This document shows positions 7,770 through 26,008 of a stretch of 64,000 nucleotides of DNA, piece after piece. The notes under the pieces are model-generated. The model did not search any database. It saw only the letters and a program-made list of their open reading frames with translations, and had not been told where the DNA came from. The translations under genes and the position numbers were made by a program. Location of the stretch: the NCBI GenBank assembly GCA_000002445.1, contig CH464491.1:2496001-2560000 (forward strand), read 5' to 3'. Origin of the DNA: Trypanosoma brucei. Lineage: Eukaryota. How positions within the stretch are numbered: position 1 is the first letter of the stretch; the number at the start of each line of letters is the position of its first letter.

Positions 7770-8311
7770 AGCGATCAGTGCGTAAAAACTTTGAGTATGA
7801 TGGTTGCACCAGGTATATCCTCTCAGTAACCTCCATAACCAACTTTGACCTCCGTGATCGCTGACCTGGTGAAGCTGACATCGCGCGATTTCGGTGGCCA
7901 GGAAAGAAGGAAGTGGGTAGATATATAACGGATAAGGGTGCGGCTTCAAGAGAAGAAAAGTATACCTGGTTGCACCCGGTGGGACTTTGTGCCTTCTTAG
8001 CTCCGGTGCGCTGACGGTTGTACGTTGGCTCTATACGTAGCGCATATGCTGCCGTACTCGGCGAGATTTCGAGCATGTAGTTTGATCATTTGTCTAGTAC
8101 GTTCACAGGTCTCCGGCAATGTTTTTGTTTTTCTTTTTACTTGCAAGTGGGTTGTGCTTGTGCTCAATACCCAGCGGGCAATAGTCTTCTGGGCTCACTC
8201 GGCTTACGCCACTGTGTTGGGTCGGCATGCACCTATGTCCCGATGTTGGTTGCATTTTTCTCTTATTCCCTTCCCCCACTGTCTTATTTTACACGTGTAT
8301 TTGTTGCAAAG

Positions 8312-11014
8312 ATGAGGGTGGGGTGGACAACTCGCTCCCCAGTGAAGTCAAAATGGATATGGGAACTTGAGCCGAGCAGGCTCCGCGCTATCGACTTTTT
8401 TACCTACCGTCTCGGGCTTTTCAGCGATCCCTCCACGAAGTGTACCAGGAAGGTCGCAGTCGACGGTAGCAACGGCAAAATAAGCAATAAAAAACGAAAT
8501 GCGAATCGATTAAACAAACTGTCTGAACCTTTGAGCCCTATTCCGTCACCCTATGGCGGGGAGCTTACGAAGGCGCACAATACCGCAGGCGATGGATGCA
8601 GTAGGATTTTCTCATTCTCTCCCTTGAAGCTGATGCAACGGATGATGCGCGAGTGGGAAGAAGAGCAGCGAGAGCTTTTGTCGCGAGATGAAGAAATCCT
8701 GGCAAGGGAAGAAGCGCAAATGGCTTCTATTATGAAGCATCCATCCGCATTGTTCGGGGATGAAGCAGCGGTCCTGTACAAATTTGGCATGGGTGCCTTC
8801 GTTTCACCGAACGCACCGGGCTTCTCGGGAATTTTTCGGCAGCATTGGAAGGACTTTTTGGTCACGGAAATGGTCTACGATAGTGAGGGAGAAGATGGCA
8901 AACCACTTTCCCGCGAGCTCGATTGGACTATTCCACCACTTCCTGATTGTTTTCGTTCAGTTGATGAATCAGATACCAAATATGTGCATGGTGGCAGCAC
9001 GGCTAGCGGTGAAAACCGCATCAACAGTTTCTTTACCGTCGATATAGGAGGGCAGTTAAAACAAATAATGAAGGAAGATAGCGGCGAGGGAGATAGCAAA
9101 AGAACGGGGGTGGAACCCCTAACGGGTAATCTGTCTGGCGCAGCCTCACGAAATAAATCTCGACTAGAGGGAAACGGCCAGGATGAGGATTCGAGCGAAT
9201 TTAGGACGGGGAAGTTTTACCTTCAGTGCTACCTCCGTAAGCAGCATATTGCACACAGCGTCGCGCTCTCCAACATCGCTCAAACTCTTCGAATGCACCC
9301 CTCCTGTATATCCGTAGCCGGTATTAAGGACTACATTGGGGACACGCTGCAAAGGGTCCGGTTGCAAAATGTCACTCCAGCATCAGCGCTAGAAGCAAAT
9401 CGTGTCTTCCGCAAGAAGAAGTGGGCAATGACCCTTTCCGACTTCTCATATCATACGGAACCACTATTTCCTGGGCGGCTGTTCGGTAATCACTTTAAAA
9501 TTGTCCTTCGAGATGTGACGGTGCCAAAGACATGCATTCAACAGGCGGTGTACGAGCTCCAGACGCATGGGTTCCCGAACTATTACGGATGCCAGCGGTT
9601 CTCGTGGTTTGGTGGGACTAATGATGCTGCTTTCGCTATACTAAATCAAAACTGGTTAGCTTTCGCGTTCCGCTTTCTCGGGTATACCAGTCGTGAGCTG
9701 ACACTCCGAGAACTGCTACAGCGTGAAAAAAAATATCCGAACCCAGTACAAGACGAGTATCGTCGCAATATCGTACGGCGTCTTCGATCCATCGCAATAG
9801 AACCCAGTGAATTGGATACGGCTCCATTTCTTGCATGTCCCTCCCTTGGTGCCCCGTTGACCGCTACCGATGGTGGGCCCGTGAGCAAGAAGCAAGAGTT
9901 GATACTTCTGCAGTTACAAGGTGCGTATCTTGATTTGAGCGTGATGAGTCGGCGTCTCACAGCACAGCGTCTCTGTAGCTACTTGTGGAACCAAGTGCTA
10001 ACACTTCGGCTTCACCACTTCGGTGGTAAAGAGGTTTTGGAAGGTGATATGGTTCTACCCGAGGTGCTGCGGCGTGTGCAAACCTCACCAGAAGAACGGA
10101 CTGACTGGTACCGACAGGGTATTCATCTCGTTGAAACTGAGGAAGAAAGAGAGAGAACGTCCATTATGAATGTTATTCATCCTGGTTTCTCCTTCAATTC
10201 CATGCGGTTGCCGCAGAACGCGGTAGGGGAGTATTTTCTTCAGGTGTGTCAAAAGTACCACCTGGAATGGCACAGCCGCCACTCGAGGTTGGGGATTCAC
10301 GACTTCTTTGAGCCACCGCGCCCTATTATTCGTAAACCAATGAACCTGCGGTATGACTACGACACTGAGTCATGCAAGTTGACGCTTGAATTTTCTCTTG
10401 AGCGTGGCAGCTACGCTAATGTTGTTCTTACAGAGCTCATGAAACAAGCTCGTTGTGTTGGTTCCTCTGATATTCTTACCCTTCCCGCTCCCGATGCAAT
10501 GTGGGAGTTTGGAAACCGCGATCCTGGATACGTCACATCCCTGCAAGACATATACGAAGGATTTCAAGACGGTGTTGGGTTTGTGAATGAGGAGCACGTC
10601 CTACCTTTTGTTGGGGATGTCAAGCCGTGGGACTATAATACCGGGCCGCTCTTTCTACCGGAGAGTGCAGATCCTGTGCGCAAAGCACATCGTTGGGGAT
10701 CACGGCACCTGATTCGGAATATGGCCCGCCGGGAACAAGATGAGGAGGAAATGAGGTTGCGACTATTTGAGAAACCACTCGCCAAAACACTTAAAGATGG
10801 CGAAGTGAGCTGTTACGCCGGGCACACAGTTCCCCTTCCACCCAATGCTAAGGCGAAGAAAATATTCTTTAAAGTCCTCCGCCGGCAGCGTCGCTACCCC
10901 GGGGCACCCAAAACCACGCCACGTATCAAACGCGGTGCAGAGGTTCAAAGGAGGGAAACGGCTCGTGTGCCGTTTAAAACCATTAACAAGAATACGTGGA
11001 ACGTGACGTGGTGA
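8312..11014 (+). CDS. PUS7: tRNA pseudouridine synthase, TruD/Pus7 family
   Basis: 'GFPNYYGCQRFSWFG' matches the TruD/Pus7 'NYFGxQRFG' signature, and the length suits eukaryotic Pus7. The ORF track starts at 8090, but its first 74 codons translate a pyrimidine-rich UTR-like stretch. The ATG at 8312 (MRVGWTT...) follows a polyY tract plus AG. Confidence 0.8.
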   Translation: MRVGWTTRSPVKSKWIWELEPSRLRAIDFFTYRLGLFSDPSTKCTRKVAVDGSNGKISNKKRNANRLNKLSEPLSPIPSPYGGELTKAHNTAGDGCSRIFSFSPLKLMQRMMREWEEEQRELLSRDEEILAREEAQMASIMKHPSALFGDEAAVLYKFGMGAFVSPNAPGFSGIFRQHWKDFLVTEMVYDSEGEDGKPLSRELDWTIPPLPDCFRSVDESDTKYVHGGSTASGENRINSFFTVDIGGQLKQIMKEDSGEGDSKRTGVEPLTGNLSGAASRNKSRLEGNGQDEDSSEFRTGKFYLQCYLRKQHIAHSVALSNIAQTLRMHPSCISVAGIKDYIGDTLQRVRLQNVTPASALEANRVFRKKKWAMTLSDFSYHTEPLFPGRLFGNHFKIVLRDVTVPKTCIQQAVYELQTHGFPNYYGCQRFSWFGGTNDAAFAILNQNWLAFAFRFLGYTSRELTLRELLQREKKYPNPVQDEYRRNIVRRLRSIAIEPSELDTAPFLACPSLGAPLTATDGGPVSKKQELILLQLQGAYLDLSVMSRRLTAQRLCSYLWNQVLTLRLHHFGGKEVLEGDMVLPEVLRRVQTSPEERTDWYRQGIHLVETEEERERTSIMNVIHPGFSFNSMRLPQNAVGEYFLQVCQKYHLEWHSRHSRLGIHDFFEPPRPIIRKPMNLRYDYDTESCKLTLEFSLERGSYANVVLTELMKQARCVGSSDILTLPAPDAMWEFGNRDPGYVTSLQDIYEGFQDGVGFVNEEHVLPFVGDVKPWDYNTGPLFLPESADPVRKAHRWGSRHLIRNMARREQDEEEMRLRLFEKPLAKTLKDGEVSCYAGHTVPLPPNAKAKKIFFKVLRRQRRYPGAPKTTPRIKRGAEVQRRETARVPFKTINKNTWNVTW

Positions 11015-12013: not shown

Positions 12014-12423
12014 GGTTTCCGCTGCTTTCGGCTGCCCGTACACGTGGACACAACCGCAGCATGGCAGGCAAAGGGCTGGGAAAGGAGAAGCTGGGACACT
12101 GAAGTAAGTAAATGCTGGAAAAGAGGTAAATCGCGGTGGTGTTACATTACTACAAAACTCAGGTTGCACTGGCAGCTGAATTTTTTCACTCCTCTGTGCA
12201 TGGTGTCTTGTTTGAGGGAGATGATGTAGCTTCAAACTCGTTAATTCCTGTTGTTTTGATTCCTTGGAAAGGATTTGGTGAGCACGCTCACATGGTTCTC
12301 TTTTGTGTTTGTTTGTTTTCCCTTCGCACACGCCTACAACGTAAGACACACCAATTCACCACGAGGCGGCACGCCCTCAGCTCCGCACGGTCCTCCCGTG
12401 TTGGTGTGCACGCAGGCCTGACG

Positions 12424-15321
12424 ATGACAGAGGACGAGGAACCATATGTTATGGCCTTCGAGCCCTACACAGTGCAGAGGGAAATGATGCGAACTGTTCA
12501 TTTGGCTCTTAATTCCTGGCCTCGGCACACCCCCATTGCGGCGATTGAGGTTCCCACCGGGTGTGGAAAGACGCTGGCATTGCTTTCAAGCGTGTTGCGC
12601 TACCAGGCAGGGTTGGAGAAACACACACCACAGGAGCTGGAGCAGCACTTTCGCCTGCGGAGGTGTAGGGGTCCCCCAGTGTTGCCCTCATTGTCAAGAA
12701 CGGAAATGTCGTCACGTAAATGGTGCCACTGCAAGGAAGACAGTAAACACAGTGAAGAGTCGAATGGTTTGAAAGCAAATACAGCGGACGGTGAAGAAGC
12801 TTGGCGTGTGTCGTCGTTATTTCTGAGGCAGTTCAGGCCACCGAACGGCAAACGTCTGCGTGTTGAGCTAGTAACTGAAGGATCGTTGGAACTCCGCAAG
12901 CAGCATCAATCGCCGCCATGTACGATTTTTTACGTGACGCGTACGCACGCGCAGCTTCGACAGTGTGTGGGGGAACTGCGTAAACTCAAAGGTCTGGAGA
13001 GACTGAAAATGAATATCCTGGGAAGCCGCAAGCAATACTGCATAAACCAACATGTGCTGAAGGCGTGTGCAAACAAGACGCTTCCTATAGAGGGAAACAA
13101 CCTTGGTGAAGTCTGTGACAAGCTTGTGTCTCTCGGTCAGTGCGAAGCCGTTCATGGCTACGGTGTCCTTGGTAGTAAGGCTATAACTCACCCCCTGAGC
13201 CAAGGACGGAGTGACAAAGTGTGGGATATTGAAGATTTGGTAACCGAAGGTGTAGGAATGGAGTGTTGTCCGTATTATGCCGCGAGAGACCTTGTCTTCT
13301 TCGCCCACATCAACTTTGCCACGTATCAGTATCTTCTGGACCCGCTCATTCGTCATGAGTGCAAGATGGAGGCTGCCCTAAAAAATCACTCCATCATTAT
13401 CTTTGATGAGGCACACAACGTCCCGCAAGTGTGTCAAGATGCATTATCCGTAGAGACGTCAGTGGACACGCTCCGTCTCATCCTAAATGAGATCGAGCCT
13501 CTAATACAACCCACTGTGGCGGTGGCGACGCTCAGCTACCCGCGCGAGTTCAAACTAACCAAATGGACACTTGTGGAGCTACTTTCCCTACTGTATGACG
13601 TATTCAAAGCCGTCACAGAGTTCGTGTCACCTGCGCAACCGTCGGTAAAAACGCAGCGTGGGGTACACTCCCGGCCGGTGGGGGGACAAGATGTCGAGGA
13701 AAGTGAAAGTAACCATGACGTTGAGAACAACGCAATCTTTCCAGGCGAAACCCTCGCAGAAGTGTTACGCCGCTGCATTACGGATTACATACCGATCGCT
13801 TCTAGCTGCAGCCGTCGAGGGTATGGGACCGCAGAGAGTTCAGCATCGAAAGACGGTGTAGCGATGTTTCGGCAAGTTTACGGGATTATAATGTCTCTGG
13901 GGGTCACCTTTAATCCATTCCAGTTCTCCATTTTTTGTCTTTCACTTATGAAGCGTTGGATCCTCATCATGCGCTTTATCATCCAGAAACCGAGCGCCTT
14001 TGTCCTCAGCATCAGTGACCCATTGCCAGAAAAAAACCGTAACGGTCAAGACAGCGTCCCAAGCAGTGAGGCTGGCGGCAACACCGAGGGGGTTGAGTCA
14101 GCTGTGCCATCACGAAGAATTGTTGGTATCCGATGTTTGGATGGTAGTTTGGCATTTCAGCACATCTTGAGTACCGCTCACCGTGTTGTGTTGGCCTCCG
14201 GGACACTTGCGCCGTTTCATCAGTTGGGACGAGACTTGGGAATACCACCTTCCAGTATGGCAACTTATGAAGGATTGCATGTGGCACAGAAGCATCAGTA
14301 TCGATTGGGGGTTCTCACACATACTGTGGATGCCACTCCGTTGCACTGTACCTACGGGAGTTTGAAGGATCCTTCTTTCATTAGTCAGCTTGTGGAGACA
14401 CTCGCTATGCTTGTTGAAAAAGTGGAACTTGGAGGTGTTCTCGTCTTCATGCCCAACTACACCGTAATGAAAACCATCGGGTTGCAGCTCATTTCTCGTT
14501 ACCGTGACGCAGCCCGTCAGATGGAAGGAACACCAAAGTCTTCTAGGTTCCCGCAGGTTTTCCTCGAGAGTCAGTCAGCAGCTGATTTCCCTTCAGTGCT
14601 AGATAGCTTCCGAAAGGCTACAGTTCGTGGCCCAGCCGTTTTCGCCTCTGTTTTTCGAGCGAAAGTGAGTGAAGGGATTGACTTCGCGGATTGCATGGCC
14701 CGTCTTGTCGTGTGTGTGGGAGTCCCTTTACAGCCGTTGAAATCGTGGACGGTGCAAGCACAGAGGAGATACAGTGGGGAGGAGTGGTACGTAAATGATG
14801 CGGTCCGCGCTGTTAATCAAGCCCTTGGACGCTGCATACGTCACTCACGAGATTTCGGTGCGATGGTCCTGTTGGACGACCGTTTTGAACAAATGAACCT
14901 TCAGCAATCCCTGTCAAGATGGTGCCGCGAGGAGTTGAGGGTCCACCACTCACACGCGTCGTTAGCGGATGATCTTCATGAGTTCTTTCGCACTTGCAGG
15001 GGGGGAAATGCAATAGCGAAGGATTCTCATCTCAGAGAAAACGTAAGCGGTGGAAATACCAGCCAAGGAGAAGAACTGTATTGCCGGTCACTGGAAAAAG
15101 AAAACGTCCCTCCCCCCATTAAGGAAGAACGAGTGACCAGCATCTTGGATGCACCCTTTCTCATGGGGCCTGTACTGAAGCCGAAGGTTCCAACTTACAC
15201 ACGACAGTTGAGTTGCACCGCATTAAAACTCATGTACGAAGCCCATGATGATGTCTCCCAAGTTACAGCCGAAGAGCTTCGTGAGGCACTGCGACTCTTG
15301 GAGGACGGGTTTCCGCAGTGA
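12424..15321 (+). CDS. Rad3/XPD-family (DinG-like) Fe-S DNA helicase; DDX11/RTEL1/FANCJ-like
   Basis: Walker A 'VPTGCGKTLALL' and DEAH box 'IIIFDEAHNV'. A four-Cys Fe-S region spans 'YCINQ...KAC...VCDKL...GQC...ECCPYY'. C-terminal motif VI reads 'LGRCIRHSRDFGAMVLLDDRF'. The ORF track starts at 12136, but the motif-consistent start is the ATG at 12424 (MTEDEEPYVMAFEPY). Confidence 0.85.
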   Translation: MTEDEEPYVMAFEPYTVQREMMRTVHLALNSWPRHTPIAAIEVPTGCGKTLALLSSVLRYQAGLEKHTPQELEQHFRLRRCRGPPVLPSLSRTEMSSRKWCHCKEDSKHSEESNGLKANTADGEEAWRVSSLFLRQFRPPNGKRLRVELVTEGSLELRKQHQSPPCTIFYVTRTHAQLRQCVGELRKLKGLERLKMNILGSRKQYCINQHVLKACANKTLPIEGNNLGEVCDKLVSLGQCEAVHGYGVLGSKAITHPLSQGRSDKVWDIEDLVTEGVGMECCPYYAARDLVFFAHINFATYQYLLDPLIRHECKMEAALKNHSIIIFDEAHNVPQVCQDALSVETSVDTLRLILNEIEPLIQPTVAVATLSYPREFKLTKWTLVELLSLLYDVFKAVTEFVSPAQPSVKTQRGVHSRPVGGQDVEESESNHDVENNAIFPGETLAEVLRRCITDYIPIASSCSRRGYGTAESSASKDGVAMFRQVYGIIMSLGVTFNPFQFSIFCLSLMKRWILIMRFIIQKPSAFVLSISDPLPEKNRNGQDSVPSSEAGGNTEGVESAVPSRRIVGIRCLDGSLAFQHILSTAHRVVLASGTLAPFHQLGRDLGIPPSSMATYEGLHVAQKHQYRLGVLTHTVDATPLHCTYGSLKDPSFISQLVETLAMLVEKVELGGVLVFMPNYTVMKTIGLQLISRYRDAARQMEGTPKSSRFPQVFLESQSAADFPSVLDSFRKATVRGPAVFASVFRAKVSEGIDFADCMARLVVCVGVPLQPLKSWTVQAQRRYSGEEWYVNDAVRAVNQALGRCIRHSRDFGAMVLLDDRFEQMNLQQSLSRWCREELRVHHSHASLADDLHEFFRTCRGGNAIAKDSHLRENVSGGNTSQGEELYCRSLEKENVPPPIKEERVTSILDAPFLMGPVLKPKVPTYTRQLSCTALKLMYEAHDDVSQVTAEELREALRLLEDGFPQ

Positions 15322-16155: not shown

Positions 16156-17202
16156 ATGGAGTGGGTTCCGTGCACCGAGCAGACGGGGTCGGTGGGCTGC
16201 CGCGAGGGGCACTGCGCAACCTCTCTTCAAGAAAAAAGTACTGGAGAAGAATGGGTTTTGGTTGTTGGGGGATATTGCGAAGGGGAGCGCGACGGCGCGG
16301 TTATGGCAGCGCGAGCAGATGGACTGCCGATGCTACGATGGGTTCGGCTGGATAAGCCCAACATGACGTGGTTCGAATGTGATGGGGCTTCGCTAACGCA
16401 CGTAACTGGCGACACCGCCTACTTCTTTGGTGGATTAAACGAGCACATGAATCACAGTAATCAGTTACTCTGTCTTTCCCTGCATCAGGGGCAACAGGGT
16501 GATCTTTCCCTCGATGTGGTGAAGGTAGAGACAACAGGAGACGTCCCTCTTCCGCGCGCGAGGCATTCAGCTGGTAGTGCCGGGCGGTATTTCGTTGTGT
16601 TCGGTGGTGAAACGGAAGATGCTGAACAAAATAATGACGGATACATCCTGGACACCGACACAATGGTATGGACACGAATTCCAACAGGGCACCAGGTGCC
16701 CAATCCACGACTTCTCGCCGGCCCTCTTGTGTTCTACTCACCCCACGGGTGCATACTTTACGGTGGGGCACACTTTGTGAACGGCGATATAAGGAGTATG
16801 TCTGACGTGTGGAACCTGCACATCCCGCTGGGAGGCACATGGTTTAACGTTTCCTATGGGGACGGCGCCCCCGCCTGTCGCTTCCCGAGGTCGAATGGTC
16901 ACGCCGGTGGCGTTCTGGGGCGGGTTGGGGGAGAAACTGTAGTGTTGTTTGTTGGAGGAAAGGATGCCGCTGAGGGGTGTGACAGAGTAAAACAGGTGCA
17001 GCCTCCGAAATCTGCTGAAGACAAATTCCATCTTCGTCTGGTAGACCCCGTGTTGGCTGGTGGTGAGGGCCCGCACTGGCGGTACACACCAGCAGCGGTA
17101 GATACACGACGTGGCGTATTGCTTTTGGGTGGTCAGTGCCGTCATCCACAGGAGGTTGCTGCCTTCCTACTAAAGCAGACGGGTGTTACTTTGCAACGGT
17201 AA
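16156..17202 (+). CDS. Kelch-repeat (galactose-oxidase-type beta-propeller) protein
   Basis: Repeated 'Y(F)FGG' Kelch-blade motifs: 'AYFFGGLNEH', 'YFVVFGGETED', 'ILYGGAHF', 'VLFVGGKDA', 'VLLLGGQC'. Confidence 0.7.
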   Translation: MEWVPCTEQTGSVGCREGHCATSLQEKSTGEEWVLVVGGYCEGERDGAVMAARADGLPMLRWVRLDKPNMTWFECDGASLTHVTGDTAYFFGGLNEHMNHSNQLLCLSLHQGQQGDLSLDVVKVETTGDVPLPRARHSAGSAGRYFVVFGGETEDAEQNNDGYILDTDTMVWTRIPTGHQVPNPRLLAGPLVFYSPHGCILYGGAHFVNGDIRSMSDVWNLHIPLGGTWFNVSYGDGAPACRFPRSNGHAGGVLGRVGGETVVLFVGGKDAAEGCDRVKQVQPPKSAEDKFHLRLVDPVLAGGEGPHWRYTPAAVDTRRGVLLLGGQCRHPQEVAAFLLKQTGVTLQR

Positions 17203-17537
17203 CAAATAATCAACAAGGTGGAATCAGTGGAGACAATTTGGAGAGATAGTGCAGTACTGCGCCCTACTGAATTCGGGGTTGTTTCGTTATTATCGTTTAC
17301 GTTTCGTACGCATTTCTTGTTTGTCTTCGCTTTTTTTGGATATGCGTGATGTGGCGCGTCGTTTTCACACAGCCTTTTTCCCTAATGTTAGCCCTCCAAA
17401 CCCTCACCCCCTCAATCTGAAGAAAAAGAGAGGGGCTTTCGTATCCTCAGGACTCGACCGCAAGTATGTCTTTAATTTTTTTTTGTATCATCCCTCATCC
17501 GTTCACCCGCACAAAGTGTTCCAAGGTGTCGATCATC

Positions 17538-18731
17538 ATGCAGATGTTGGCCCCTGGTGCTTTCTTCAACGCATTAAAGGTCCGGGGGGTTACACACTTT
17601 TTTGGAGTTCCTGACCCCATTCTAAAATATTTCTGTGCCTTCGTGGCAAGTCACACGACACCGAAGGAACACATCATCACAGCAAACGAAGGGAATGCAG
17701 TGGCCATGGCTGCAGGTTACCATCTTGCAACTGGGGGACTCCCTTTGGTGTACATGAAAAACAGTGGCTTAGGCGATGCACTCAATCCCCTGATCTCTCT
17801 CACACACGCTGAGGCGTGCAGCATTCCCATGTTTATAGTCGTTGGTTGGCGAGGAGCTCCTGATGCTGGAAATGAGCTACCGTGTGCCGCAGAAGGGCGC
17901 TTGACCGAAGGAATCCTACGTGCTGCTGAGGTCCCGTATATCATTTTATCTTCTGCTTGTGGAAACGGGGAGCAGTCGATGGAAACAGCTCTGGATATGG
18001 CACTGAAGCACGTGCATAATTCAAGGACGCCCTATGCCTTTTTGGTACCACCAAACTTTTTTGAGGAATGCGCTTACGAAGGGGTTGGAGAAGGTATTGC
18101 TGAGCTTCCCATGACTCGCAGGGAGGCGGTTGAACAAGCACTGCGCCAAATAGACCGGGGAGATATAGTTGTGGGCGCCGCAAGCTTCCTTGCTCGTGAA
18201 ATCTTTGAAGTTCAGGAGTGTGCCGGGATGCGACACGGCCCACAATTCTTCCCAGTCGGCAGCATGGGTCATTGTTCTTCCGTAGCAGCGGGTATAGCAT
18301 TGGCCAAACCAGAAAGGCAAGTGTTTTGCTTTGATGGAGATGGCGCATTCCTTATGCACATGGGTTCATCAGCAACCATCGGCGGTGTAGCCGCCATACA
18401 TTTAATAGGTACGGGCGAAACTTCCCTCATGCGCAACTACAAACATGTCGTTTTCAACAACGGATCCCACGATTCGGCAGGTGGTCAACCCACTGTGTCT
18501 TTTGATGTATCCCTCACGCAAGTGGCGAGTGCGTGTGGTTTTAGGACTGTCCGCGAAGAACCCGTAATGGACCTTGGCGAAACTGTGCGGGCCCTTCAGG
18601 AATTAAAGAAGGCGGAAGGGCCCGCGTTCTTGGAAGTATTTGTGCGAAGGGGCGGCCATTCAAACCCACAATGTGAACTTCCCTCTTTAGATGAGAGCAA
18701 ACAAGCTCTCACTAACTGCTTGAGGGGCTAG
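17538..18731 (+). CDS. PPDC: Thiamine-diphosphate-dependent decarboxylase, phosphonopyruvate/sulfopyruvate decarboxylase-like (PPDC-like)
   Basis: N-terminal TPP Pyr domain: 'GVTHFFGVPDPILKYF...ANEGNAVAMAAGYHLATGGLPLVYMKNSGLGDALNPL'. C-terminal PP domain with a GDG motif: 'FCFDGDGAFLMHMGS'. The ~400 aa single-chain size fits PPDC/ComDE-type enzymes. Start moved to the ATG at 17538 (MQMLAPG) after a polyY tract. Confidence 0.7.
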   Translation: MQMLAPGAFFNALKVRGVTHFFGVPDPILKYFCAFVASHTTPKEHIITANEGNAVAMAAGYHLATGGLPLVYMKNSGLGDALNPLISLTHAEACSIPMFIVVGWRGAPDAGNELPCAAEGRLTEGILRAAEVPYIILSSACGNGEQSMETALDMALKHVHNSRTPYAFLVPPNFFEECAYEGVGEGIAELPMTRREAVEQALRQIDRGDIVVGAASFLAREIFEVQECAGMRHGPQFFPVGSMGHCSSVAAGIALAKPERQVFCFDGDGAFLMHMGSSATIGGVAAIHLIGTGETSLMRNYKHVVFNNGSHDSAGGQPTVSFDVSLTQVASACGFRTVREEPVMDLGETVRALQELKKAEGPAFLEVFVRRGGHSNPQCELPSLDESKQALTNCLRG

Positions 18732-19132: not shown

Positions 19133-20605
19133 ATGTTAAGGCGTACAATTTTCCTGGGAAGGGTAACCCGCTCTTGGACCAAAGGATCTATAGTTAAGGC
19201 ATCGGCCCATTTCCCAGATTCTGTGAGGGCTGATCCCGCAGAAAGACGTAATGAAGACTCGTCTCCGAAGGAAAGCCGCACATGGTCTCTTCATGACGGC
19301 CCGTGCAGCGAACCTCTTCACGTTCCCAAACATATTCAATGGGCAACACAGAAGGTGAGAGTTTGGGGGCAACTAATGCGAGTGGATAAGGCTGCTGCAA
19401 TAAACCTCCTGCTTCAACCTTGTTACTGGGGAGCCAGTCTAGCAGTAACTCGGGCCATCGTCTGGGAGGGGGCGGATCCTGTCGTTTTGTTCGCTCCTTT
19501 CATTCCCGTACATTTGATCGTCCTGTTCGGCGCTGGTGCCTTTTTGGCTCGGGGTGCGGGTTGTATTATTAACGACATGTGTGACAGAAAGTTCGACCGA
19601 ATGGTAGAACGCACCAAAACACGGCCGCTTGCTAGCGGTGTTGTCAGCATGAAGGAGGCATCAGGCCTTCTCATAACAGTAGCTGGTTTTGCGCTTGTTA
19701 TTGCACTAAACCTGTCGCCCATGGCACTTGCTTCGGCGGTAGCGTTAGCTCCCATCGCGGCAGTTTATCCGCTCATGAAGCGTATAACCTACATGCCTCA
19801 GCTCGTTCTGGGACTTTGCTTCAACGGCGGCATTTTTGTTGGGTATGCTGCCGTGCTAAACCGCATTGATTTGGCCGTTACGCTTCCTATCTACTGCTCA
19901 GCCGTCGTGTGGACAGTTTTGTATGATACCATCTATGCGTACCAAGACAGGGCGGACGACCTGAAATGCGGTGTGAAGAGCTCGGCTATTCTTATTGGTG
20001 ACAGGAAGCATATTCTCACTTTCATGATACTCCCCATCGGCATGGGTATTCTTATTTCGGGATTGATGGTCTCACAGTCGCTTCCGTTTTACATCGGTGT
20101 CCTCTGTTGCGTTTGGTACCTTCAGGGTGTCGTTGATAACGTCAACATATACGATGCGTGGTCATGTGGTATGGGATTCCGCAGGAACGTACGATTTGCC
20201 ATCCTGGTTACTTTTTCTCTCTGCCTTGGAAACGTGTTGTGGGCACTCGCATCTGAGCACCAACCGGAAAAGGACGCCGCGAGCAACGCCATATCGGAAA
20301 AGTCGGCCTTGATGAAATTCCTTCTTTTGAATAAGGAAGCGGAACCCATGTCGTACAGCGTGCAAGATATTCGTTGGGTAGACCGTTTTGCGCATCCGGC
20401 ATTCGTGGCAGCGCAGAAGGCTCAACACGAGGGAGAGGAAAAAACGGTGGTGGTGCCGGCGTGGATGCGGCGTGAGTACCTGGGTGAGAATGTAGGGACT
20501 ATCATGCGCTTTTTTGGCGTTGACGAGGAAGCAATCCAAACTTGGCAAAAGTGGTGGTACGCGCAACTTGACCACTACAACATGTTCTCCAGCATCGCCG
20601 TTTAG
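19133..20605 (+). CDS. COQ2: 4-hydroxybenzoate polyprenyltransferase (UbiA family; ubiquinone biosynthesis, COQ2)
   Basis: UbiA Asp-rich motif 'GCIINDMCDRKFDRMVERTKTRPLASG' with a second 'YDTIYAYQDRADD' motif and multiple TM helices. The start is moved from the ORF-track 19001 to 19133 (MLRRTIFLGRVTRSW), a mitochondrial-presequence-like N-terminus. A ~100-aa C-terminal tail follows the UbiA domain. Confidence 0.85.
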   Translation: MLRRTIFLGRVTRSWTKGSIVKASAHFPDSVRADPAERRNEDSSPKESRTWSLHDGPCSEPLHVPKHIQWATQKVRVWGQLMRVDKAAAINLLLQPCYWGASLAVTRAIVWEGADPVVLFAPFIPVHLIVLFGAGAFLARGAGCIINDMCDRKFDRMVERTKTRPLASGVVSMKEASGLLITVAGFALVIALNLSPMALASAVALAPIAAVYPLMKRITYMPQLVLGLCFNGGIFVGYAAVLNRIDLAVTLPIYCSAVVWTVLYDTIYAYQDRADDLKCGVKSSAILIGDRKHILTFMILPIGMGILISGLMVSQSLPFYIGVLCCVWYLQGVVDNVNIYDAWSCGMGFRRNVRFAILVTFSLCLGNVLWALASEHQPEKDAASNAISEKSALMKFLLLNKEAEPMSYSVQDIRWVDRFAHPAFVAAQKAQHEGEEKTVVVPAWMRREYLGENVGTIMRFFGVDEEAIQTWQKWWYAQLDHYNMFSSIAV

Positions 20606-21431: not shown

Positions 21432-23294
21432 ATGGAGAATGTGGTTATGGAAGCGGGGGAGGGAGGTTCTAAGTCGAATGCCCCGCAGAATGATGATGCA
21501 AGTGTCATGAATGCCTTGTACGAGCCGCCCCCTCCATTAGCTTCTGACGGTGTGGATGATGCCTTCATTGGCATGGCGTTAGAGGAATGTAGTTTACGGG
21601 ATGTTTATTCGTACAGCTGCCACAGATTTGGGGTCCGACCCAACGAAAACATCCTGCGGCAACTCCCTCCTGTTGCTGGTGATGAATGGGTTAGAAAAAT
21701 AAAGGTACTCGACTTTTCCGCGGTGTACCTTGGTGGTAAAGGGTGCCTTTCGCTCGTACCAATAATTGAACGTTGCACGGAGGCAACACATTTGATGATG
21801 CCCAACGTTGGCTTAACACACGAAGCGGCCGCGCCTCTTTTTGAAGTCATGCGGTACCACCCCAGTGTGTCGTGGATGGACGTATCGAAAAATCGCCTGA
21901 ACGATGATGTGGGTCGCTGGATTCTCAACGCCGTGATCGAAAACCCGAGGATAAGGTTCGTTCTTCTCCGAGATGCGGGTATTAGTCCACCGCTTCTGCA
22001 AAAAATCGAAAACCGTTTGCACGAACGAATGTATGGAACGGTGGAGGCTATAACTCCATCCATTCGCGTAACTTACGCCGAAGGATTTTCTCAACTGTTT
22101 GAATCCTCCCTTGGAACTGGTGCGAATGACACCGCAAGGGTTCCGGTGCATTACGTTCCCCCATCCGTGGCTGCAGGTCTTGTGGAATTACGACACCAAC
22201 TGTATCGCAATGCCGAATCCATGCGGTGCGTTTACAACTGTTTTACCCACAACCTCACACCGGAGTCGGGAGGGTGCGCAAGCGACGCAGGGACAGACGC
22301 AGAAGAATTACCGGAAACAAACAGTGAGGCCGGATTCGGCGCCCCTCACCCTGATCGCTGCTCGTGGCGGTCGTTTTTCTGTGGGCTACGCCTGCTTGGT
22401 GTCCGCGCCGTCTGCAAGTCCCTTGAAGATAGCGTGGCCTTCGCCAACTTATGCGGCATATGTAATGTTGAGACCGTACTTTTTGGAAAACTTATCCAGC
22501 TTTTGAGGCCGCATGTGGCGATTAAAGATGAGATGACGCCGGAATCACCGCCTGTGCGCGGGAACACTATTCCAAATCAGTTTGCCGACGTCTCGCCTCC
22601 GTTGGATGTGCAGCAGGGGGCATCGATGGATGCAGAAGAGATTCCATCAAGGGATCTAAGCGGCAACATGCGCGCAGCTACGCCTGAAATGGGGAAACCA
22701 CAAGCAGATACACCGTCTGTTCCTACCCAAGAGGCTGCCCGTATGGCCTCCGAAGCGAGATGCTCGCCACTCACCCTGAGGCCGCTGCATTGCACACTTC
22801 ACGAAAAAAGGTCGTCTTTAGGCCCATCCCTTTTGGACACATTCGTGACGACCCCGAGCATTGCTGGAGTGCATGCCAGTGGGCCCTTGGAGGCGCGGCT
22901 TCGGCTGGATCGTACGTTTGATTCACGGAACAAGCAGACTGTTGTGGACCAACTGTATGATGAACGTGTCACTCTTAGCGAAGTCTTCAAAAAAACAGGT
23001 GGCGAAGACCCTGATGCAAGTGCCCCATCTTACCTAGTGGATATAGATGAGGTGATTAAGCACGCCGTCTCTCGCGTAGGTGAGTCGAATCGGGAAATTG
23101 TGAAATCTTTGGTGGAGCCATGGGCTGTTGGCGTTGAGGATCGAGTGCTCGTGAATACTGAAGGTTGGTTAAGCTCCATGTACGTTCCCCAATTAGAGGC
23201 GTCAACGCTAATGCCGTTCTCGTTTTCTGAAGAAAAGCTTATCTGGGCCGGTGTCACGGTGGAGGAATTACGAGAGTCAGTTGACTTATGGTGA
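21432..23294 (+). CDS. Leucine-rich-repeat (ribonuclease-inhibitor-type) protein, hypothetical
   Basis: The N-terminal third has LRR_RI-like periodicity: 'IKVLDFSAVYLGGKGCLSLV...THLMMPNVGLTHEAAAPLFEVM...WMDVSKNRLNDDVGRWILNAV...FVLLRDAGISPPLL'. The remainder is disordered and S/P/A-rich. It is the last gene of the plus-strand unit. Confidence 0.6.
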   Translation: MENVVMEAGEGGSKSNAPQNDDASVMNALYEPPPPLASDGVDDAFIGMALEECSLRDVYSYSCHRFGVRPNENILRQLPPVAGDEWVRKIKVLDFSAVYLGGKGCLSLVPIIERCTEATHLMMPNVGLTHEAAAPLFEVMRYHPSVSWMDVSKNRLNDDVGRWILNAVIENPRIRFVLLRDAGISPPLLQKIENRLHERMYGTVEAITPSIRVTYAEGFSQLFESSLGTGANDTARVPVHYVPPSVAAGLVELRHQLYRNAESMRCVYNCFTHNLTPESGGCASDAGTDAEELPETNSEAGFGAPHPDRCSWRSFFCGLRLLGVRAVCKSLEDSVAFANLCGICNVETVLFGKLIQLLRPHVAIKDEMTPESPPVRGNTIPNQFADVSPPLDVQQGASMDAEEIPSRDLSGNMRAATPEMGKPQADTPSVPTQEAARMASEARCSPLTLRPLHCTLHEKRSSLGPSLLDTFVTTPSIAGVHASGPLEARLRLDRTFDSRNKQTVVDQLYDERVTLSEVFKKTGGEDPDASAPSYLVDIDEVIKHAVSRVGESNREIVKSLVEPWAVGVEDRVLVNTEGWLSSMYVPQLEASTLMPFSFSEEKLIWAGVTVEELRESVDLW

Positions 23295-24293
23295 GGTTTA
23301 CTCTCTTTTGTTATTCACTAGAAGGATATGTGTAGTATATATTTCCCTATGTGAGTCGCTTATTTGCATACCGGTGAAGCGGTTCCTTATGGTGTCAGCG
23401 CCGATGCAGCAACACACGCCAAGACGACACCGCTCTGGTCGCTGGTGCTTTTTTTTTTTTTACTTCTATTTTTCTTTGCCCTCTGCGGCTACCAAAGGAG
23501 CCATCACAATTAGCAAAGGTAGAACTTAGTTGGCCGTACGGCGGGAAAGGTTGTGTGGTAGAATTGGTGTTGAATGTCCGGTGTTTTTCCAATATGTACG
23601 ATGCCGCGCAGAGGCGCAGTGAACCAGCAAAACTGTGGGGGACAAAAAGGAATATACTGATCTGCAAAAGGTCTCGGCTGACGTTTTACCACTTTTTGTG
23701 TACGGATGCGCCGAGACCGAGGTTGCAGTAAAACGTGGCACATAGGGAAAACGACAAAGAGCAATGCGAGCAGCCCCAATTGCAGGTCGCAGGCGCTCTA
23801 AGAAATAAAAGGAAGAGAATAGTGAGCAAGGCAATTCGGAAGCGTGGACCGGCGGGAAGTGCTCCGCGAGGAAAAAAAAATAAAGGCACGACTCAACAAA
23901 TCCACCTAAAAGTGCGGAGGAGAGCAGGATGGAATACATCAACTGCAACATTTATGGAACACAACACCAAGTCCAATTGCTTCCTGAAACAATTTTTTGG
24001 CGCTTGTGTAGAAAAGTGGAGCTGGAGCGGTGGAAACTCGCATGTGACTACATACTGCGATAAGTCATTAGTGAAAGGGAATTTGGGGTGGAGAGTGCAT
24101 ATGGGCAAAAATAGGTTTCCACAACAATTAAACACAAGATTGTTGATTGTTAGCAGTCGTCGCACTACCCGCTTGTGTGCAACAACTTGGCTGTGATATG
24201 GAAATGCTGTGAGCCGACGAGGTCGGGGGAGCGGATGCCAGTTTGGGGGGGCGAATCCCTTTCTTGATTTCCTCTGCCTGGCGCAAGAATGCA

Positions 24294-24313
24294 CCCCCCC
24301 CCCAAAAAAAAAA
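24294..24313. repeat. C10 immediately followed by A10 homopolymer tract
   Basis: Direct reading: 'ccccccccccaaaaaaaaaa'. Confidence 0.9.
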
Positions 24314-24459
24314 GAAAACAGCTGGGGAAGCCGAGAAACACCACTGCCCAGGAGAGTATCAACGAGAAAGACAATCTCGCAAGGTTTAAATCCGACTAAT
24401 AACATTGTTGACAGCAACCCCTTTCTGATGTTCAGCAATTGTAATGTGTCTCTCGGCCC

Positions 24460-24474
24460 GGGGGGGGGGGGGGG
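24460..24474. repeat. G15 homopolymer
   Basis: Direct reading: 'ggggggggggggggg' after 'ctcggccc'. Confidence 0.9.
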
Positions 24475-26008
24475 AATCCTCTCCGGCACAATTGCACCAT
24501 GCCTTTTCCAACTCGAGCTCACGCTTCATCGGTAATATGGGAATGGGAAGAGGGTAGTTTGTCAGTAACCTTTCGTGCGACTTTGCTAGCATGTACTCCA
24601 CTTTCCCCTCCACACGTGTGGATATTTTCCCCCAGTTTGAGAACCCTTTCAACGGGCTTTTCCCCTAAGTCCCGGGCGTTACACCCCCACTCCCATGATG
24701 AGCCGTTTTGAGACTTCGCCACGAGACCGCCGGTATAACTCTGCGGTGAGGAGTTCATTATTTTCTTTTGTCCTGCGTCGCCGACGCAACCTCCACGATA
24801 AGAAGAAACCCCCGCTTTCCGCGAATGGGCCACTCACGTCAGTTGTCCACCCTCGCGCGAGGAACCACTTACCAGACGAAGTGAACTTAACAACCACCCT
24901 CGTACGATCTTGTTTTTGTATAAATATTGCCCCTCTTCCCGCACGCAGCTGCGCCAGCTACAGTCCGCGGTGCTCGGAACAAACCGTTTCTCGCTTTTTC
25001 CCGCATCCCTTTACTTTCCGCGCAAGCGCGATCCGAGGACACAATGCACGACTCCAGCTCCGACGATGCACCCACCATTTCCTAGAAACCCCTCCGACAA
25101 TGAATTCCTCACGAAACGCGTCATCTTAGTTCACGAGTCCAAAAACGAGAGATAAGGACAAAAATAATCTTGCAAAAGAGTGAGATGTTACTCAGGTTTG
25201 CACCAACATAAATTGCAGCCACACAGATGGGAAGGGAAGATAAGGGCGTGCGCACGCACGCATTAGTTGGATTCGAACAAACGAACATCCCGTTGATCAA
25301 GCACAATGCACTGACGAAATGGGCTGGCGAGACCGGGCTACTCATCCGCCCACTGCGAGCCGAAGGCAGTTGTCGATAATAGCAGGCACCATTTCGCACG
25401 TAAATTCATTACACAAACACGCAAGCAGTTCCTTCATTTGTTTTGGGTTCCAAGACAGCGCAACCCCGCCGCATTTTGCCCAATTCCCATACCCGCACGC
25501 ACGCACGTGCCACTCCCCGGGAAAAAGTTGGGTCAAGATAACTTTTGCCGAGCGCCTGACGTGTGAACTCGAATCTCCAACATGGTACCTGGAACACTGC
25601 AGTGAGCCGCTAGCGCCACAGTTATTTTCGTTGGGTACATCCCAACTGCTGTGGGAAACACTGCAACCCCGTCCTGTCCCGCGAACTGTCGCCCTAAACA
25701 TGTAGAACCCGTGGCATTTCCACTCCAATGCCGCACCCAATCGGTGATATCTTTCCCGCATTCCATGCGGATGTCAAGTTCATTCGCAAGAGATGCGCCT
25801 TCAAGCCAGCACGCCAACCCCTAGCCCACCATACGACCAAAGACACGGCATTCGCGTGGCTGCATTCAGTGGCGCGTACTCGCAAAACTGCAATGTGTTC
25901 GTAGATTTGTCAACAAAGTGAAAAAAAAATAATAATAATACACTCAATCCCATCATTTGAGTGAACGTGTGCAGTCACTAATTGCCGGTGCGACATACAA
26001 AACAAACC

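What the first reader, a model, noticed from the sequence alone, without database searches (positions are those of the whole stretch)
17538..18731. Bacterial-type TPP decarboxylase (phosphonopyruvate-decarboxylase-like) embedded in a eukaryotic transcription unit
The protein is a fused single-chain Pyr+PP TPP enzyme of ~400 aa with a GDG motif. It fits the phosphonopyruvate/sulfopyruvate decarboxylase class rather than pyruvate decarboxylase or acetolactate synthase. A C-P-bond (2-aminoethylphosphonate) pathway is known in T. cruzi and absent from T. brucei and Leishmania. This gene is therefore both a lineage marker and a probable ancient horizontal acquisition. Its neighbours, a Kelch protein and COQ2, are unrelated. 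The partner PEP mutase and AEP transaminase are not in this window.
Basis: partly seen in the sequence, partly recalled or inferred. Interest (0 to 1): 0.55.

Follow-up and report, generated by a model that had tools for sequence, protein, structure and literature searches.

The report
Orphaned, eroded phosphonopyruvate decarboxylase gene of T. brucei
The gene is real and is the already-annotated Trypanosoma brucei copy of phosphonopyruvate decarboxylase, but it sits in a parasite reported to lack the rest of the phosphonate pathway and has lost about a quarter of the enzyme family's invariant residues, so it is a degenerate or repurposed leftover and not a T. cruzi lineage marker.

Summary
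The ORF at 17538-18731 (+) is real. It encodes a 397-aa two-domain thiamine-diphosphate (ThDP) enzyme. Its best profile is TIGR03297 phosphonopyruvate decarboxylase (PPDC): 329 bits against a cutoff of 312.5, with the next family at 82 bits. The class assignment is therefore correct.

The lineage argument is wrong. The protein is 100% identical to XP_828999.1, 'phosphonopyruvate decarboxylase-like protein, putative', of T. brucei brucei TREU927, so the window is T. brucei. Positional orthologues (helicase-Kelch-PPDC) occur in T. cruzi and in bodonid-like metagenome contigs. Further homologues occur in Strigomonas, Novymonas and diplonemids, and the literature reports one in L. major (LmjF.28.1580).

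The T. brucei copy is degenerate:
- It changed 26-28 of 102 near-invariant PPDC positions, against 2-3 in T. cruzi, T. rangeli, T. theileri and T. grayi. Examples are DEPQH to NELPC, TTG..S to AAS..A, and R..LGRP to H..PQCE.
- It evolved about 3x faster than T. cruzi's copy, while the neighbouring genes did not.
- It keeps the cofactor residues Glu51, GDG and NN.

Published work reports no PEP mutase and no phosphonates in T. brucei. The most likely reading is an orphaned, weakly constrained ThDP-binding protein that no longer serves aminoethylphosphonate synthesis. The gene is already annotated and interest is modest.

The parts
17538..18731 (+). Coding sequence of the T. brucei phosphonopyruvate decarboxylase-like protein (397 aa plus stop). 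It is identical to XP_828999.1/Q383Z4 apart from that record's 24-aa N-terminal extension.
17466..17537 (+). In-frame 5' extension used in the TREU927 annotation (421 aa). It is probably not translated. It contains a pyrimidine tract (17469-17509) followed by AG at 17515-17516, a likely trans-splice acceptor.
   Evidence: Orthologues and the T. b. gambiense annotation start at the position equivalent to 17538. The splice site is inferred.
17559..17870 (+). Pyr (N-terminal ThDP pyrimidine-binding) domain, aa 8-111. It includes GVPDP (aa 23-27, canonical GVPDS) and the retained cofactor-activating Glu51 (17688-17690).
   Evidence: RhiE 9iz4_A: TM 0.85, rmsd 2.3 A
17871..17885 (+). Eroded motif NELPC (aa 112-116). 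It replaces the near-invariant DEPQH. The Asp and His are conserved even in the distant, experimentally verified RhiE subunit.
   Evidence: Local pLDDT drops to 75-79.
18177..18194 (+). Eroded motif AASFLA (aa 214-219). It replaces TTGxxS at the start of the PP domain. RhiF has TCGHIS.
18243..18638 (+). PP (diphosphate-binding) domain, aa 236-367. It retains GSMGH, GDG (aa 267-269, 18336-18344), NN (aa 307-308, 18456-18461) and HDSxGGQPT.
18657..18689 (+). Eroded C-terminal motif HSNPQCELPSL (aa 374-384). It replaces the canonical RxDLGRPTTTP.
   Evidence: pLDDT is 74.
16156..17202 (+). Upstream Kelch-repeat gene. Its adjacency to the PPDC gene is conserved in T. cruzi, in bodonid-like contigs and, per the literature, in L. 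major.
12136..15321 (+). DEAD_2/Helicase_C_2 (XPD/RTEL-type) helicase gene, part of the conserved syntenic block.
19133..20605 (+). UbiA-family (COQ2-like) prenyltransferase gene downstream. It is syntenic with T. cruzi.

Best explanation
This is the T. brucei positional orthologue of the euglenozoan phosphonopyruvate decarboxylase. In organisms that make phosphonates, this ThDP/Mg2+ enzyme decarboxylates 3-phosphonopyruvate to phosphonoacetaldehyde and so pulls the unfavourable PEP mutase reaction forward. In T. brucei the gene is an orphan: published work reports no PEP mutase, no aminoethylphosphonate and no phosphonolipids. The protein has evolved about three times faster than its T. cruzi orthologue. 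It has replaced about a quarter of the family's near-invariant residues, including the Asp and His of DEPQH, the Ser of GVPDS, TTG..S and the C-terminal R..LGRP. It keeps the fold and the cofactor machinery: the activating Glu51, GSMGH, GDG...NN and HDS.GGQPT. I infer that it still folds and binds ThDP-Mg2+, no longer serves aminoethylphosphonate synthesis, and persists under weakened but non-zero selection for some other, unidentified role, such as low-level or altered 2-oxo-acid chemistry. What is shown: the identity, orthology, erosion, rate acceleration and retention of cofactor motifs. What is inferred: ThDP binding, loss of efficient phosphonopyruvate decarboxylation and the existence of another role.
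For: Identity: 100% match to XP_828999.1 of T. b. brucei TREU927. Orthology: the order TruD - helicase - Kelch - PPDC - UbiA is the same in T. cruzi, and helicase - Kelch - PPDC is also found in kinetoplastid-like metagenome contigs. Family: TIGR03297 is the best hit. The model has pLDDT 90, pTM 0.88 and a ThDP-enzyme fold. Erosion: of 102 columns that are >=93% conserved in 98 non-euglenozoan PPDCs, T. brucei differs at 26-28. T. cruzi and T. rangeli differ at 3, T. theileri, T. grayi and T. melophagium at 2, and diplonemids at 3-5. TIGR03297 scores are 329 bits for T. brucei against 444-456 for T. cruzi, T. theileri and Diplonema. Several lost residues are conserved even in the distant verified PPDC RhiEF. 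Gene-specific acceleration: in Tajima tests T. brucei has 65-76 unique changes against 19-26 for T. cruzi (chi2 about 25), whereas the neighbours give 59 vs 64 (helicase) and 19 vs 19 (Kelch). Residual constraint: T. brucei changes are depleted at universally conserved sites (20% vs 36%, p = 0.018), and the ORF is intact in T. b. brucei, T. b. gambiense and T. equiperdum. [quoted passage not shown] PMC2784872 reports no phosphonolipids in T. brucei and that its ECT does not accept AEP. Parallel case: Strigomonas differs at 37 of the 102 columns and Novymonas at 45, both score below the TIGR03297 cutoff, and Novymonas has lost the catalytic Glu.
Against: The protein still passes the curated TIGR03297 equivalog cutoff, by 16.5 bits. 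All cofactor-binding residues are intact, so residual phosphonopyruvate decarboxylase activity cannot be excluded. I could not verify the absence of PEP mutase from the T. brucei genome myself: a search with Mytilus PEP mutase returned a list saturated by 77-100% identical metazoan and protist sequences, so this step rests on the literature. Within-species pN/pS (0.78-0.94, from 5-6 nonsynonymous and 2 synonymous differences) is not significantly different from the neighbours (Fisher p = 0.13-0.69). The data therefore do not separate weak constraint from no constraint. The roles of the lost motifs in substrate binding are inferred from conservation, not from a substrate-bound structure.
Confidence: 0.7

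Rival explanations
1. It is a fully functional phosphonopyruvate decarboxylase working in a phosphonate (aminoethylphosphonate) pathway, as the first reader proposed for the organism of the window.
For: TIGR03297 is the best profile and is above its cutoff. ThDP and Mg2+ motifs and the activating Glu are intact. It is orthologous to the T. cruzi gene, and T. cruzi does make AEP.
Against: The organism is T. brucei. For T. brucei, PEP mutase, AEP and phosphonolipids are reported absent. There are 26-28 replacements at near-invariant positions, including residues shared with RhiEF. Evolution is 3x accelerated for this gene only. No partner genes are in the window.
Confidence: 0.07
2. It is a functionless relic: an unprocessed pseudogene-in-waiting that has lost its pathway and is drifting neutrally, with the ORF still open by chance or because the loss of constraint is recent.
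For: There is a large excess of lineage-specific changes at invariant sites. pN/pS between T. brucei subspecies is near 1 (0.78-0.94). No T. congolense or T. vivax orthologue appeared among the hits to the T. brucei protein. One T. b. equiperdum assembly carries a 1-bp deletion at window position 17832.
Against: The 1.2-kb ORF is intact in several subspecies. Every ThDP/Mg-binding residue is retained and substitutions are significantly depleted at universally conserved sites. The model is confidently folded. Equally eroded homologues are kept as open reading frames in Strigomonas and Novymonas, and the Leishmania gene is transcribed and shows regulated mRNA levels. The equiperdum assembly also has indels in the neighbouring genes, so its frameshift is probably an assembly error.
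Confidence: 0.2
3. It is a lineage-specific, relatively recent bacterial horizontal acquisition that marks T. cruzi or a narrow trypanosome lineage.
For: The family is predominantly bacterial in the databases. The T. brucei genome paper listed it as a bacterial HGT candidate, as cited in PMC7954300.
Against: It is present, with conserved synteny, across Trypanosoma and in bodonid-like contigs, and also in Leishmaniinae, Strigomonas and diplonemids. Euglenozoan sequences cluster together, apart from bacteria, in the neighbour-joining tree. G+C content is like that of the neighbours.
Confidence: 0.02

Closest known systems
Phosphonopyruvate decarboxylase (AepY/Ppd/Fom2 type; TIGR03297; EC 4.1.1.82), e.g. 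the Bacteroides fragilis enzyme, and the T. cruzi orthologue
   Same: Same two-domain Pyr+PP architecture of about 375-400 aa without a middle domain. It is the best and only above-cutoff profile. It has the same ThDP-activating Glu, GSMGH, GDG...NN and HDS.GGQPT motifs. It is a positional orthologue of the T. cruzi gene.
   Different: It has 26-28 of 102 near-invariant positions replaced (DEPQH, the Ser of GVPDS, the Gln of MQNSG, TTG..S, R..LGRP). It scores about 115-125 bits lower than the other Trypanosoma and Diplonema sequences. It lies in an organism reported to lack PEP mutase, so it has no known substrate supply.
Leishmaniinae/Strigomonas 'phosphonopyruvate decarboxylase-like' proteins (L. 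major LmjF.28.1580; Novymonas P0246; Strigomonas P0094)
   Same: They are also orphan homologues in lineages without phosphonates. They are kept as open reading frames, are next to the same Kelch gene in L. major, and have lost the same three motif regions.
   Different: They are more degraded: 37-48 of 102 positions changed, and they score below the TIGR03297 cutoff. Novymonas and P0247 have lost the catalytic Glu and one Asn of the NN pair. T. brucei keeps all cofactor residues. The replacements differ between lineages, so the erosion looks independent.
RhiEF heteromeric phosphonopyruvate decarboxylase of Bacillus subtilis (PDB 9IZ3/9IZ4) and sulfopyruvate decarboxylase ComDE
   Same: Same superfamily and fold. 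The N-terminal domain superposes on RhiE (TM 0.85, rmsd 2.3 A). Sequence hits to RhiF and RhiE have E = 2e-12 and 7e-10.
   Different: Those enzymes are split into two subunits and share only about 26% identity. The ComDE profiles score far below their cutoffs (82 vs 221.5 and 65 vs 148 bits). RhiE and RhiF keep the Ser of GVPxS, the Gln of MQNSG, the Asp and His of the DEPQH region, and T.G..SR, all of which T. brucei has lost.
Pyruvate / indolepyruvate decarboxylases and acetolactate synthases (three-domain ThDP enzymes)
   Same: They share ThDP chemistry, the activating Glu (PPDC Glu51 aligns with yeast PDC Glu51) and the GDG...NN motif. They are structural matches by Foldseek.
   Different: Those enzymes have about 550-600 aa with a middle domain that is absent here. 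Their profile scores are about 50 bits against cutoffs above 500. TM-scores are only 0.25-0.38.

Membership tests
Phosphonopyruvate decarboxylase (TIGR03297, EC 4.1.1.82) | Profile score above the curated equivalog cutoff, and best among ThDP families | tested here: met
   329 bits against a cutoff of 312.5; the next family scores 82 bits. The pass is marginal: T. cruzi 444, T. theileri 452, Diplonema 456 and Clostridium 521 bits.
Phosphonopyruvate decarboxylase (TIGR03297, EC 4.1.1.82) | Single chain of about 375-400 aa with Pyr and PP ThDP domains and no middle (TH3) domain | tested here: met
   Pfam TPP_enzyme_N at aa 8-111 and TPP_enzyme_C at aa 236-367. AlphaFold model with pLDDT 90.2 and pTM 0.88. 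Foldseek hits are all ThDP enzymes, including RhiE with TM 0.85.
Phosphonopyruvate decarboxylase (TIGR03297, EC 4.1.1.82) | Cofactor machinery: activating Glu in the NEG motif, GSMGH, GDG...NN Mg2+/diphosphate motif, HDS.GGQPT | tested here: met
   Glu51, GSMGH 241-245, GDG 267-269, NN 307-308 and HDSAGGQPT 311-319 are all present.
Phosphonopyruvate decarboxylase (TIGR03297, EC 4.1.1.82) | Family-invariant non-cofactor residues: GVPDS, MQNSGxGN, GWRG..DEPQH..QG, TTG..SRE, R..LGRP | tested here: not met
   26-28 of 102 near-invariant columns differ, against 2-3 in the other Trypanosoma. Changes include S27P, Q74K, N80D, Y94C, DEPQH to NELPC, Q119E, TTG..S to AAS..A, and R374H/G378Q/R379C/P380E. 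Several of these residues are conserved in RhiEF.
Phosphonopyruvate decarboxylase (TIGR03297, EC 4.1.1.82) | Co-occurrence with PEP mutase, which supplies phosphonopyruvate (and usually an AEP transaminase) | tested here: inconclusive
   Neither is in the 64-kb window (tblastn E >= 0.8). A database search with Mytilus PEP mutase was saturated by metazoan and protist hits and showed no kinetoplastid. The literature states that PEP mutase and AEP are absent from T. brucei (PMC5648825, PMC2784872). The T. brucei genome itself could not be scanned with these tools.
Phosphonopyruvate decarboxylase (TIGR03297, EC 4.1.1.82) | Catalytic activity: ThDP/Mg2+-dependent decarboxylation of 3-phosphonopyruvate to phosphonoacetaldehyde | not testable with these tools
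   This needs a recombinant enzyme assay.
Kinetoplastid PPDC orthologue group | Conserved genomic position (helicase - Kelch - PPDC) and grouping with kinetoplastid sequences | tested here: met
   Same gene order in T. cruzi (L001), T. b. gambiense (L006) and metagenomic kinetoplastid-like contigs (L002-L004). The neighbour-joining tree places it among the trypanosomatid sequences.
Sulfopyruvate decarboxylase ComDE (TIGR03845/TIGR03846) | Profile scores above the curated cutoffs | tested here: not met
   82 bits against 221.5 (beta) and 64.8 bits against 147.95 (alpha).
Acetolactate synthase / pyruvate or indolepyruvate decarboxylase | Three-domain architecture of about 550-600 aa and a profile score above the cutoff | tested here: not met
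   No middle domain. ALS profiles score about 50 bits against cutoffs of 538-1084. Foldseek TM-scores are 0.25-0.38.

The most novel reading that the evidence does not exclude
The T. brucei protein is not a relic but a neofunctionalised ThDP enzyme. Its cofactor site was kept while the phosphonate-recognising residues were replaced, and it now acts on a different 2-oxo acid. One concrete candidate is the unassigned decarboxylation step that would turn the abundant aromatic keto acids of T. brucei (indolepyruvate, phenylpyruvate) into the aldehydes leading to tryptophol and indoleacetate. These compounds are reported as T. brucei tryptophan catabolites (PMC6027508). I know of no dedicated decarboxylase for this step in T. 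brucei. That statement and the link itself are my speculation.
Probability: 0.1. Interest if true: 0.6.

Novelty: already known. Interest (0 to 1): 0.3.

Why it matters
The gene and its 'phosphonopyruvate decarboxylase-like' label are already in GenBank and UniProt, and a bacterial origin was proposed with the T. brucei genome paper. The finding as submitted therefore adds nothing and misplaces the organism.

What may be useful is the comparative pattern. Canonical PPDC sequences occur in T. cruzi and T. rangeli, the two trypanosomes in which phosphonolipids were measured. Eroded sequences occur in T. brucei and in Strigomonas and Novymonas; L. donovani, a relative of Novymonas, was measured as a non-producer. 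This is a clean natural experiment on what happens to a pathway enzyme after its partner is lost. The motifs that erode independently in these lineages point to residues specific to the phosphonopyruvate reaction rather than to cofactor binding.

There is also a practical warning. The TIGR03297 cutoff still names the T. brucei protein a PPDC, so metabolic reconstructions or drug-target lists that infer a phosphonate pathway in T. brucei from this annotation would be wrong. If the protein turned out to have a new substrate, it would be a parasite-specific ThDP enzyme with no human homologue.

Tried and rejected
1. Direct test for PEP mutase in T. brucei. I took a bacterial PEP mutase from the gene next to a Clostridium PPDC. 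I used it to recover the Mytilus PEP mutase sequence from PDB alignments and searched the protein database with that sequence. The 120 listed hits were all 77-100% identical metazoan or protist enzymes. No kinetoplastid sequence, not even T. cruzi's, was visible, so the result says nothing about T. brucei.

2. The Strigomonas query was too divergent for the word index. Only 164 hits came back and Leishmania was not among them, although Novymonas was. The presence of the gene in Leishmania therefore rests on PMC7954300.

3. Sarkar et al. 2003 and Berriman et al. 2005 are not held in the library. Their content is cited only through papers that quote them.

4. The profile-sequence alignment to yeast PDC1 covered only 59 columns. 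The alignment supports Glu51 = PDC Glu51 and Ser27 = PDC Asp28. It does not test my guess that DEPQH His116 and Thr214 correspond to PDC His114/115 and Glu477, so that guess remains an inference from motif spacing.

5. pN/pS within T. brucei is underpowered.

6. I considered the T. b. equiperdum frameshift at 17832 as evidence of pseudogenisation. I rejected it because the same assembly has indels in the neighbouring genes, and another T. equiperdum record is intact.

7. I considered P0012, which pairs with T. brucei in the neighbour-joining tree, as a salivarian relative. I rejected this because its GC3 is 0.91 against 0.49; long-branch attraction is likely.

8. The neighbour-joining tree is midpoint-rooted on long branches and has no support values. 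I use it only for grouping, not for the ultimate origin of the gene.
Full report
**Observation**

The longest ORF covering the reported interval runs from 17466 to 18731 on the + strand (421 aa).

That start is probably the right one, for three reasons:
- The orthologues begin at the equivalent position: MGKLAPE... against MQMLAPG....
- T. b. gambiense is annotated with 397 aa.
- A pyrimidine tract (17469-17509) followed by AG (17515-17516) lies between the two ATGs. This is what a trans-splice acceptor looks like. It is inference, not shown.

Pfam finds the N-terminal and C-terminal ThDP domains and nothing between them. NCBIfam gives TIGR03297 phosphonopyruvate decarboxylase as the best hit, with E = 3.3e-98 and 329 bits against a curated cutoff of 312.5. 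The sulfopyruvate decarboxylase subunits score 82 and 65 bits, far under their cutoffs. Acetolactate synthases score about 50 bits against cutoffs above 500.

An AlphaFold model built on a 50-sequence alignment is confident (pLDDT 90.2, pTM 0.88). It matches only ThDP enzymes in the PDB. Its N-terminal domain superposes on the RhiE subunit of the Bacillus phosphonopyruvate decarboxylase (TM 0.85, rmsd 2.3 A). The observation and the class assignment are confirmed.

**Where the window comes from**

The protein is 100% identical to 'phosphonopyruvate decarboxylase-like protein, putative' of Trypanosoma brucei brucei TREU927 (EAN79887.1, XP_828999.1, UniProt Q383Z4), on a 5.26-Mb contig. Near-identical copies are in T. 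b. gambiense and T. equiperdum.

The window itself contradicts that.

**Distribution and synteny**

| Source | Gene order or finding |
|---|---|
| T. cruzi | TruD - small ORF - DEAD_2 helicase - Kelch - PPDC - UbiA; the window has the same order (TruD at 8090-11014) |
| Three metagenome contigs (PPDC 46% identical to T. brucei's) | The two from P0018 carry helicase - Kelch - PPDC; the third (P0011) has Kelch - PPDC after an ORF cut by the contig end. All are kinetoplastid-like, not bacterial |
| Novymonas | Homologue lies near an alpha/beta-hydrolase gene on the opposite strand |

Further homologues are in T. rangeli, T. grayi, T. theileri, T. melophagium, Strigomonas, and the diplonemids Diplonema and Flectonema.

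In a neighbour-joining tree the trypanosomatid, bodonid-like and diplonemid sequences lie together, apart from the bacterial sequences. The gene has therefore been inherited vertically at least since the common ancestor of kinetoplastids and diplonemids. A bacterial origin is attributed by PMC7954300 to the T. brucei genome paper. It may be true but would be far older than trypanosomatids, and my tree cannot decide it.

**What is unusual about this copy**

I aligned the hits and took the 102 columns that are at least 93% conserved in 98 non-euglenozoan PPDCs. The table gives the number of these columns at which each sequence differs, and the TIGR03297 score (cutoff 312.5 bits).

| Sequence | Columns differing (of 102) | TIGR03297 bits |
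|---|---|---|
| Clostridium | not applicable (in the reference set) | 521 |
| Diplonemids | 3-5 | 456 (Diplonema) |
| T. theileri | 2 | 452 |
| T. cruzi | 3 | 444 |
| T. rangeli | 3 | not scored |
| T. grayi, T. melophagium | 2 | not scored |
| Bodonid-like sequences | 1-6 | 430 (P0018) |
| T. brucei | 26-28 | 329 |
| Strigomonas | 37 | 268 |
| Novymonas | 45 | 243 |
| P0247 (Leishmaniinae-like, JGI) | 48 | 229 |

The T. brucei changes cluster in a few places:
- GVPDS to GVPDP
- MQNSGLGN to MKNSGLGD
- GWRG..DEPQH..QG to GWRG..NELPC..EG
- TTGxxSRE to AASxxARE
- R..LGRP....P to H..PQCE....L

What is kept is the cofactor machinery: Glu51 of the NEG motif, GSMGH, GDG (267-269), NN (307-308) and HDS.GGQPT.

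Several lost residues are conserved even in RhiEF, a distant, experimentally characterised heteromeric PPDC. These are the Ser of GVPxS, the Gln of MQNSG, the Asp and His of the DEPQH region, and T.G..SR. In a profile alignment to yeast pyruvate decarboxylase, PPDC Glu51 aligns with PDC Glu51 and PPDC Ser27 with the catalytic Asp28. The model's confidence dips at the eroded segments: 75-79 around aa 101-120 and 74 around aa 371-380.

**Rate tests**

With bodonid-like or bacterial outgroups, T. brucei carries 62-86 unique substitutions against 16-27 for T. cruzi, T. rangeli, T. theileri or T. grayi (chi2 14-45).

The control matters. For the adjacent genes in the same three genomes the counts are symmetrical. 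The helicase gives 59 vs 64. The Kelch gene gives 19 vs 19 and 21 vs 25. PPDC gives 65 vs 19 and 76 vs 26. The acceleration is gene-specific, not a property of the lineage.

Selection has not vanished. Among columns invariant in the five other Trypanosoma species, T. brucei changed 20% of those also conserved in bacteria but 36% of those that are not (p = 0.018). The ORF is open in all subspecies sampled.

Between T. b. brucei and T. b. gambiense there are 5 nonsynonymous and 2 synonymous differences (pN/pS 0.78). The neighbours range from 0.05 to 0.6. The counts are too small for significance.

**Pathway context**

Neither PEP mutase nor an AEP transaminase is in the window. The literature in the library is consistent:
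- Phosphonolipids were not detected in T. brucei.
- Enzymes for AEP synthesis are described as absent.
- T. brucei ethanolamine-phosphate cytidylyltransferase does not accept AEP (PMC2784872).

I could not confirm the absence of PEP mutase with the tools (saturated hit list). This step rests on the literature.

The correlation is striking. The two species measured as phosphonate producers, T. cruzi and T. rangeli, have canonical PPDCs. T. brucei, measured as a non-producer, has an eroded one. So do Strigomonas and Novymonas; for these the non-producer status is assumed from L. donovani, the measured Leishmaniinae species. In Novymonas and a related metagenomic sequence the erosion includes the catalytic Glu.

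**Most likely mechanism**

The family's chemistry is well established. Glu51 activates ThDP to the ylide. The ylide attacks C2 of 3-phosphonopyruvate, CO2 leaves, and phosphonoacetaldehyde is released. This drives the unfavourable PEP mutase equilibrium (PMC8942020 and PMC11350588).

For the T. brucei protein I infer the following:
- It still folds and binds ThDP-Mg2+.
- It has no phosphonopyruvate to act on.
- It has lost residues that every working PPDC keeps.
- It persists under weakened selection for some other role, or as a slowly decaying relic.

I put about 0.7 on 'orphaned, degenerate, not serving AEP synthesis, still under some constraint'. I put 0.2 on 'functionless relic', 0.07 on 'canonical PPDC in a cryptic phosphonate pathway' and 0.02 on 'recent lineage-specific HGT'.

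**Novel reading**

T. brucei excretes aromatic keto acids, and it is reported to form tryptophol and indoleacetate from tryptophan (PMC6027508). That route needs a 2-oxo-acid decarboxylation. A ThDP enzyme with an intact cofactor site and a remodelled substrate site is a conceivable candidate. This is speculation with no direct support. I give 'neofunctionalised to a new 2-oxo acid' about 0.1.

**Verdict**

The class assignment is correct. The lineage-marker interpretation is refuted by the window's own identity. The HGT idea is old and unresolved.

The gene is already annotated. The added value is the demonstration that this copy is an eroded orphan, together with a warning that the profile cutoff still labels it a PPDC. 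Interest is 0.3.

Noticed in passing
window 17466-17540: The TREU927 annotation (421 aa) starts at ATG 17466. T. b. gambiense and all orthologues start at the equivalent of 17538. A pyrimidine tract (17469-17509) plus AG (17515-17516) lies between the two ATGs, suggesting that the spliced-leader acceptor site removes the upstream ATG.
   Followed up: partly
window 23294-26009: Genes are on the + strand from 730 to 23294 and on the - strand from 26009 to 63979. This is a convergent strand-switch region about 2.7 kb long, and cumulative GC skew peaks there. ARAGORN finds no tRNA genes anywhere in the window.
   Followed up: partly
window 27143-29824 (-), repeats at 27181-27706: An 893-aa ORF with no Pfam domain carries imperfect tandem repeats of 147 bp (49 aa; sub-periods 48-51 bp) near its 3' end. 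The same 2-kb bin has the most extreme GC skew of the window (-0.22).
   Followed up: no
window 26009-26806 (-): A 265-aa ORF with a lipoyl protein ligase A/B catalytic domain (PF21948, 1.2e-19) is the last gene of the minus-strand unit, at the strand-switch region.
   Followed up: no
L011 (T. b. equiperdum GCA_003543875.1), equivalent to window 17832: A 1-bp deletion in a TTT run frameshifts the PPDC-like gene, so that assembly annotates only a 250-aa C-terminal fragment. The same assembly shows indels in the neighbouring Kelch and UbiA genes, so an assembly error is likely.
   Followed up: partly
P0246 (Novymonas, L009 363-1628) and P0247 (JGI metagenome): Leishmaniinae-type PPDC-like proteins have lost the ThDP-activating Glu (NEG to NCG or SSG) and one Asn of the NN pair. 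They are nevertheless kept as full-length ORFs, so they look like pseudoenzymes.
   Followed up: partly
L010 (Logan SRR24540844), P0012: An unidentified trypanosomatid PPDC with intermediate erosion (19 of 102 columns) shares S27P, S219A and V314A with T. brucei and pairs with it in the neighbour-joining tree. Its GC3 is 0.91 against 0.49 for T. brucei. The organism is unknown, and the pairing may be convergence or long-branch attraction.
   Followed up: partly
one search hit list: No T. congolense or T. vivax protein appears among the hits to the T. brucei protein, although other Trypanosoma species do. The gene may be lost, unannotated or highly diverged in those salivarian species.
   Followed up: no
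L002-L004 (metagenome contigs): The helicase-Kelch-PPDC block is conserved in kinetoplastid-like environmental contigs, but the downstream gene differs (no UbiA; HSCB_C and HECT genes follow). One 'Colponema' and one 'Platyophrya' transcriptome PPDC cluster with these sequences and may derive from bodonid prey or contaminants.
   Followed up: no
one search hit list: Eukaryotic PEP mutases are remarkably conserved. Sequences from molluscs, cnidarians, insects, rotifers, Capsaspora and the ciliate Stentor are 77-100% identical to the Mytilus enzyme over 270 aa.
   Followed up: no
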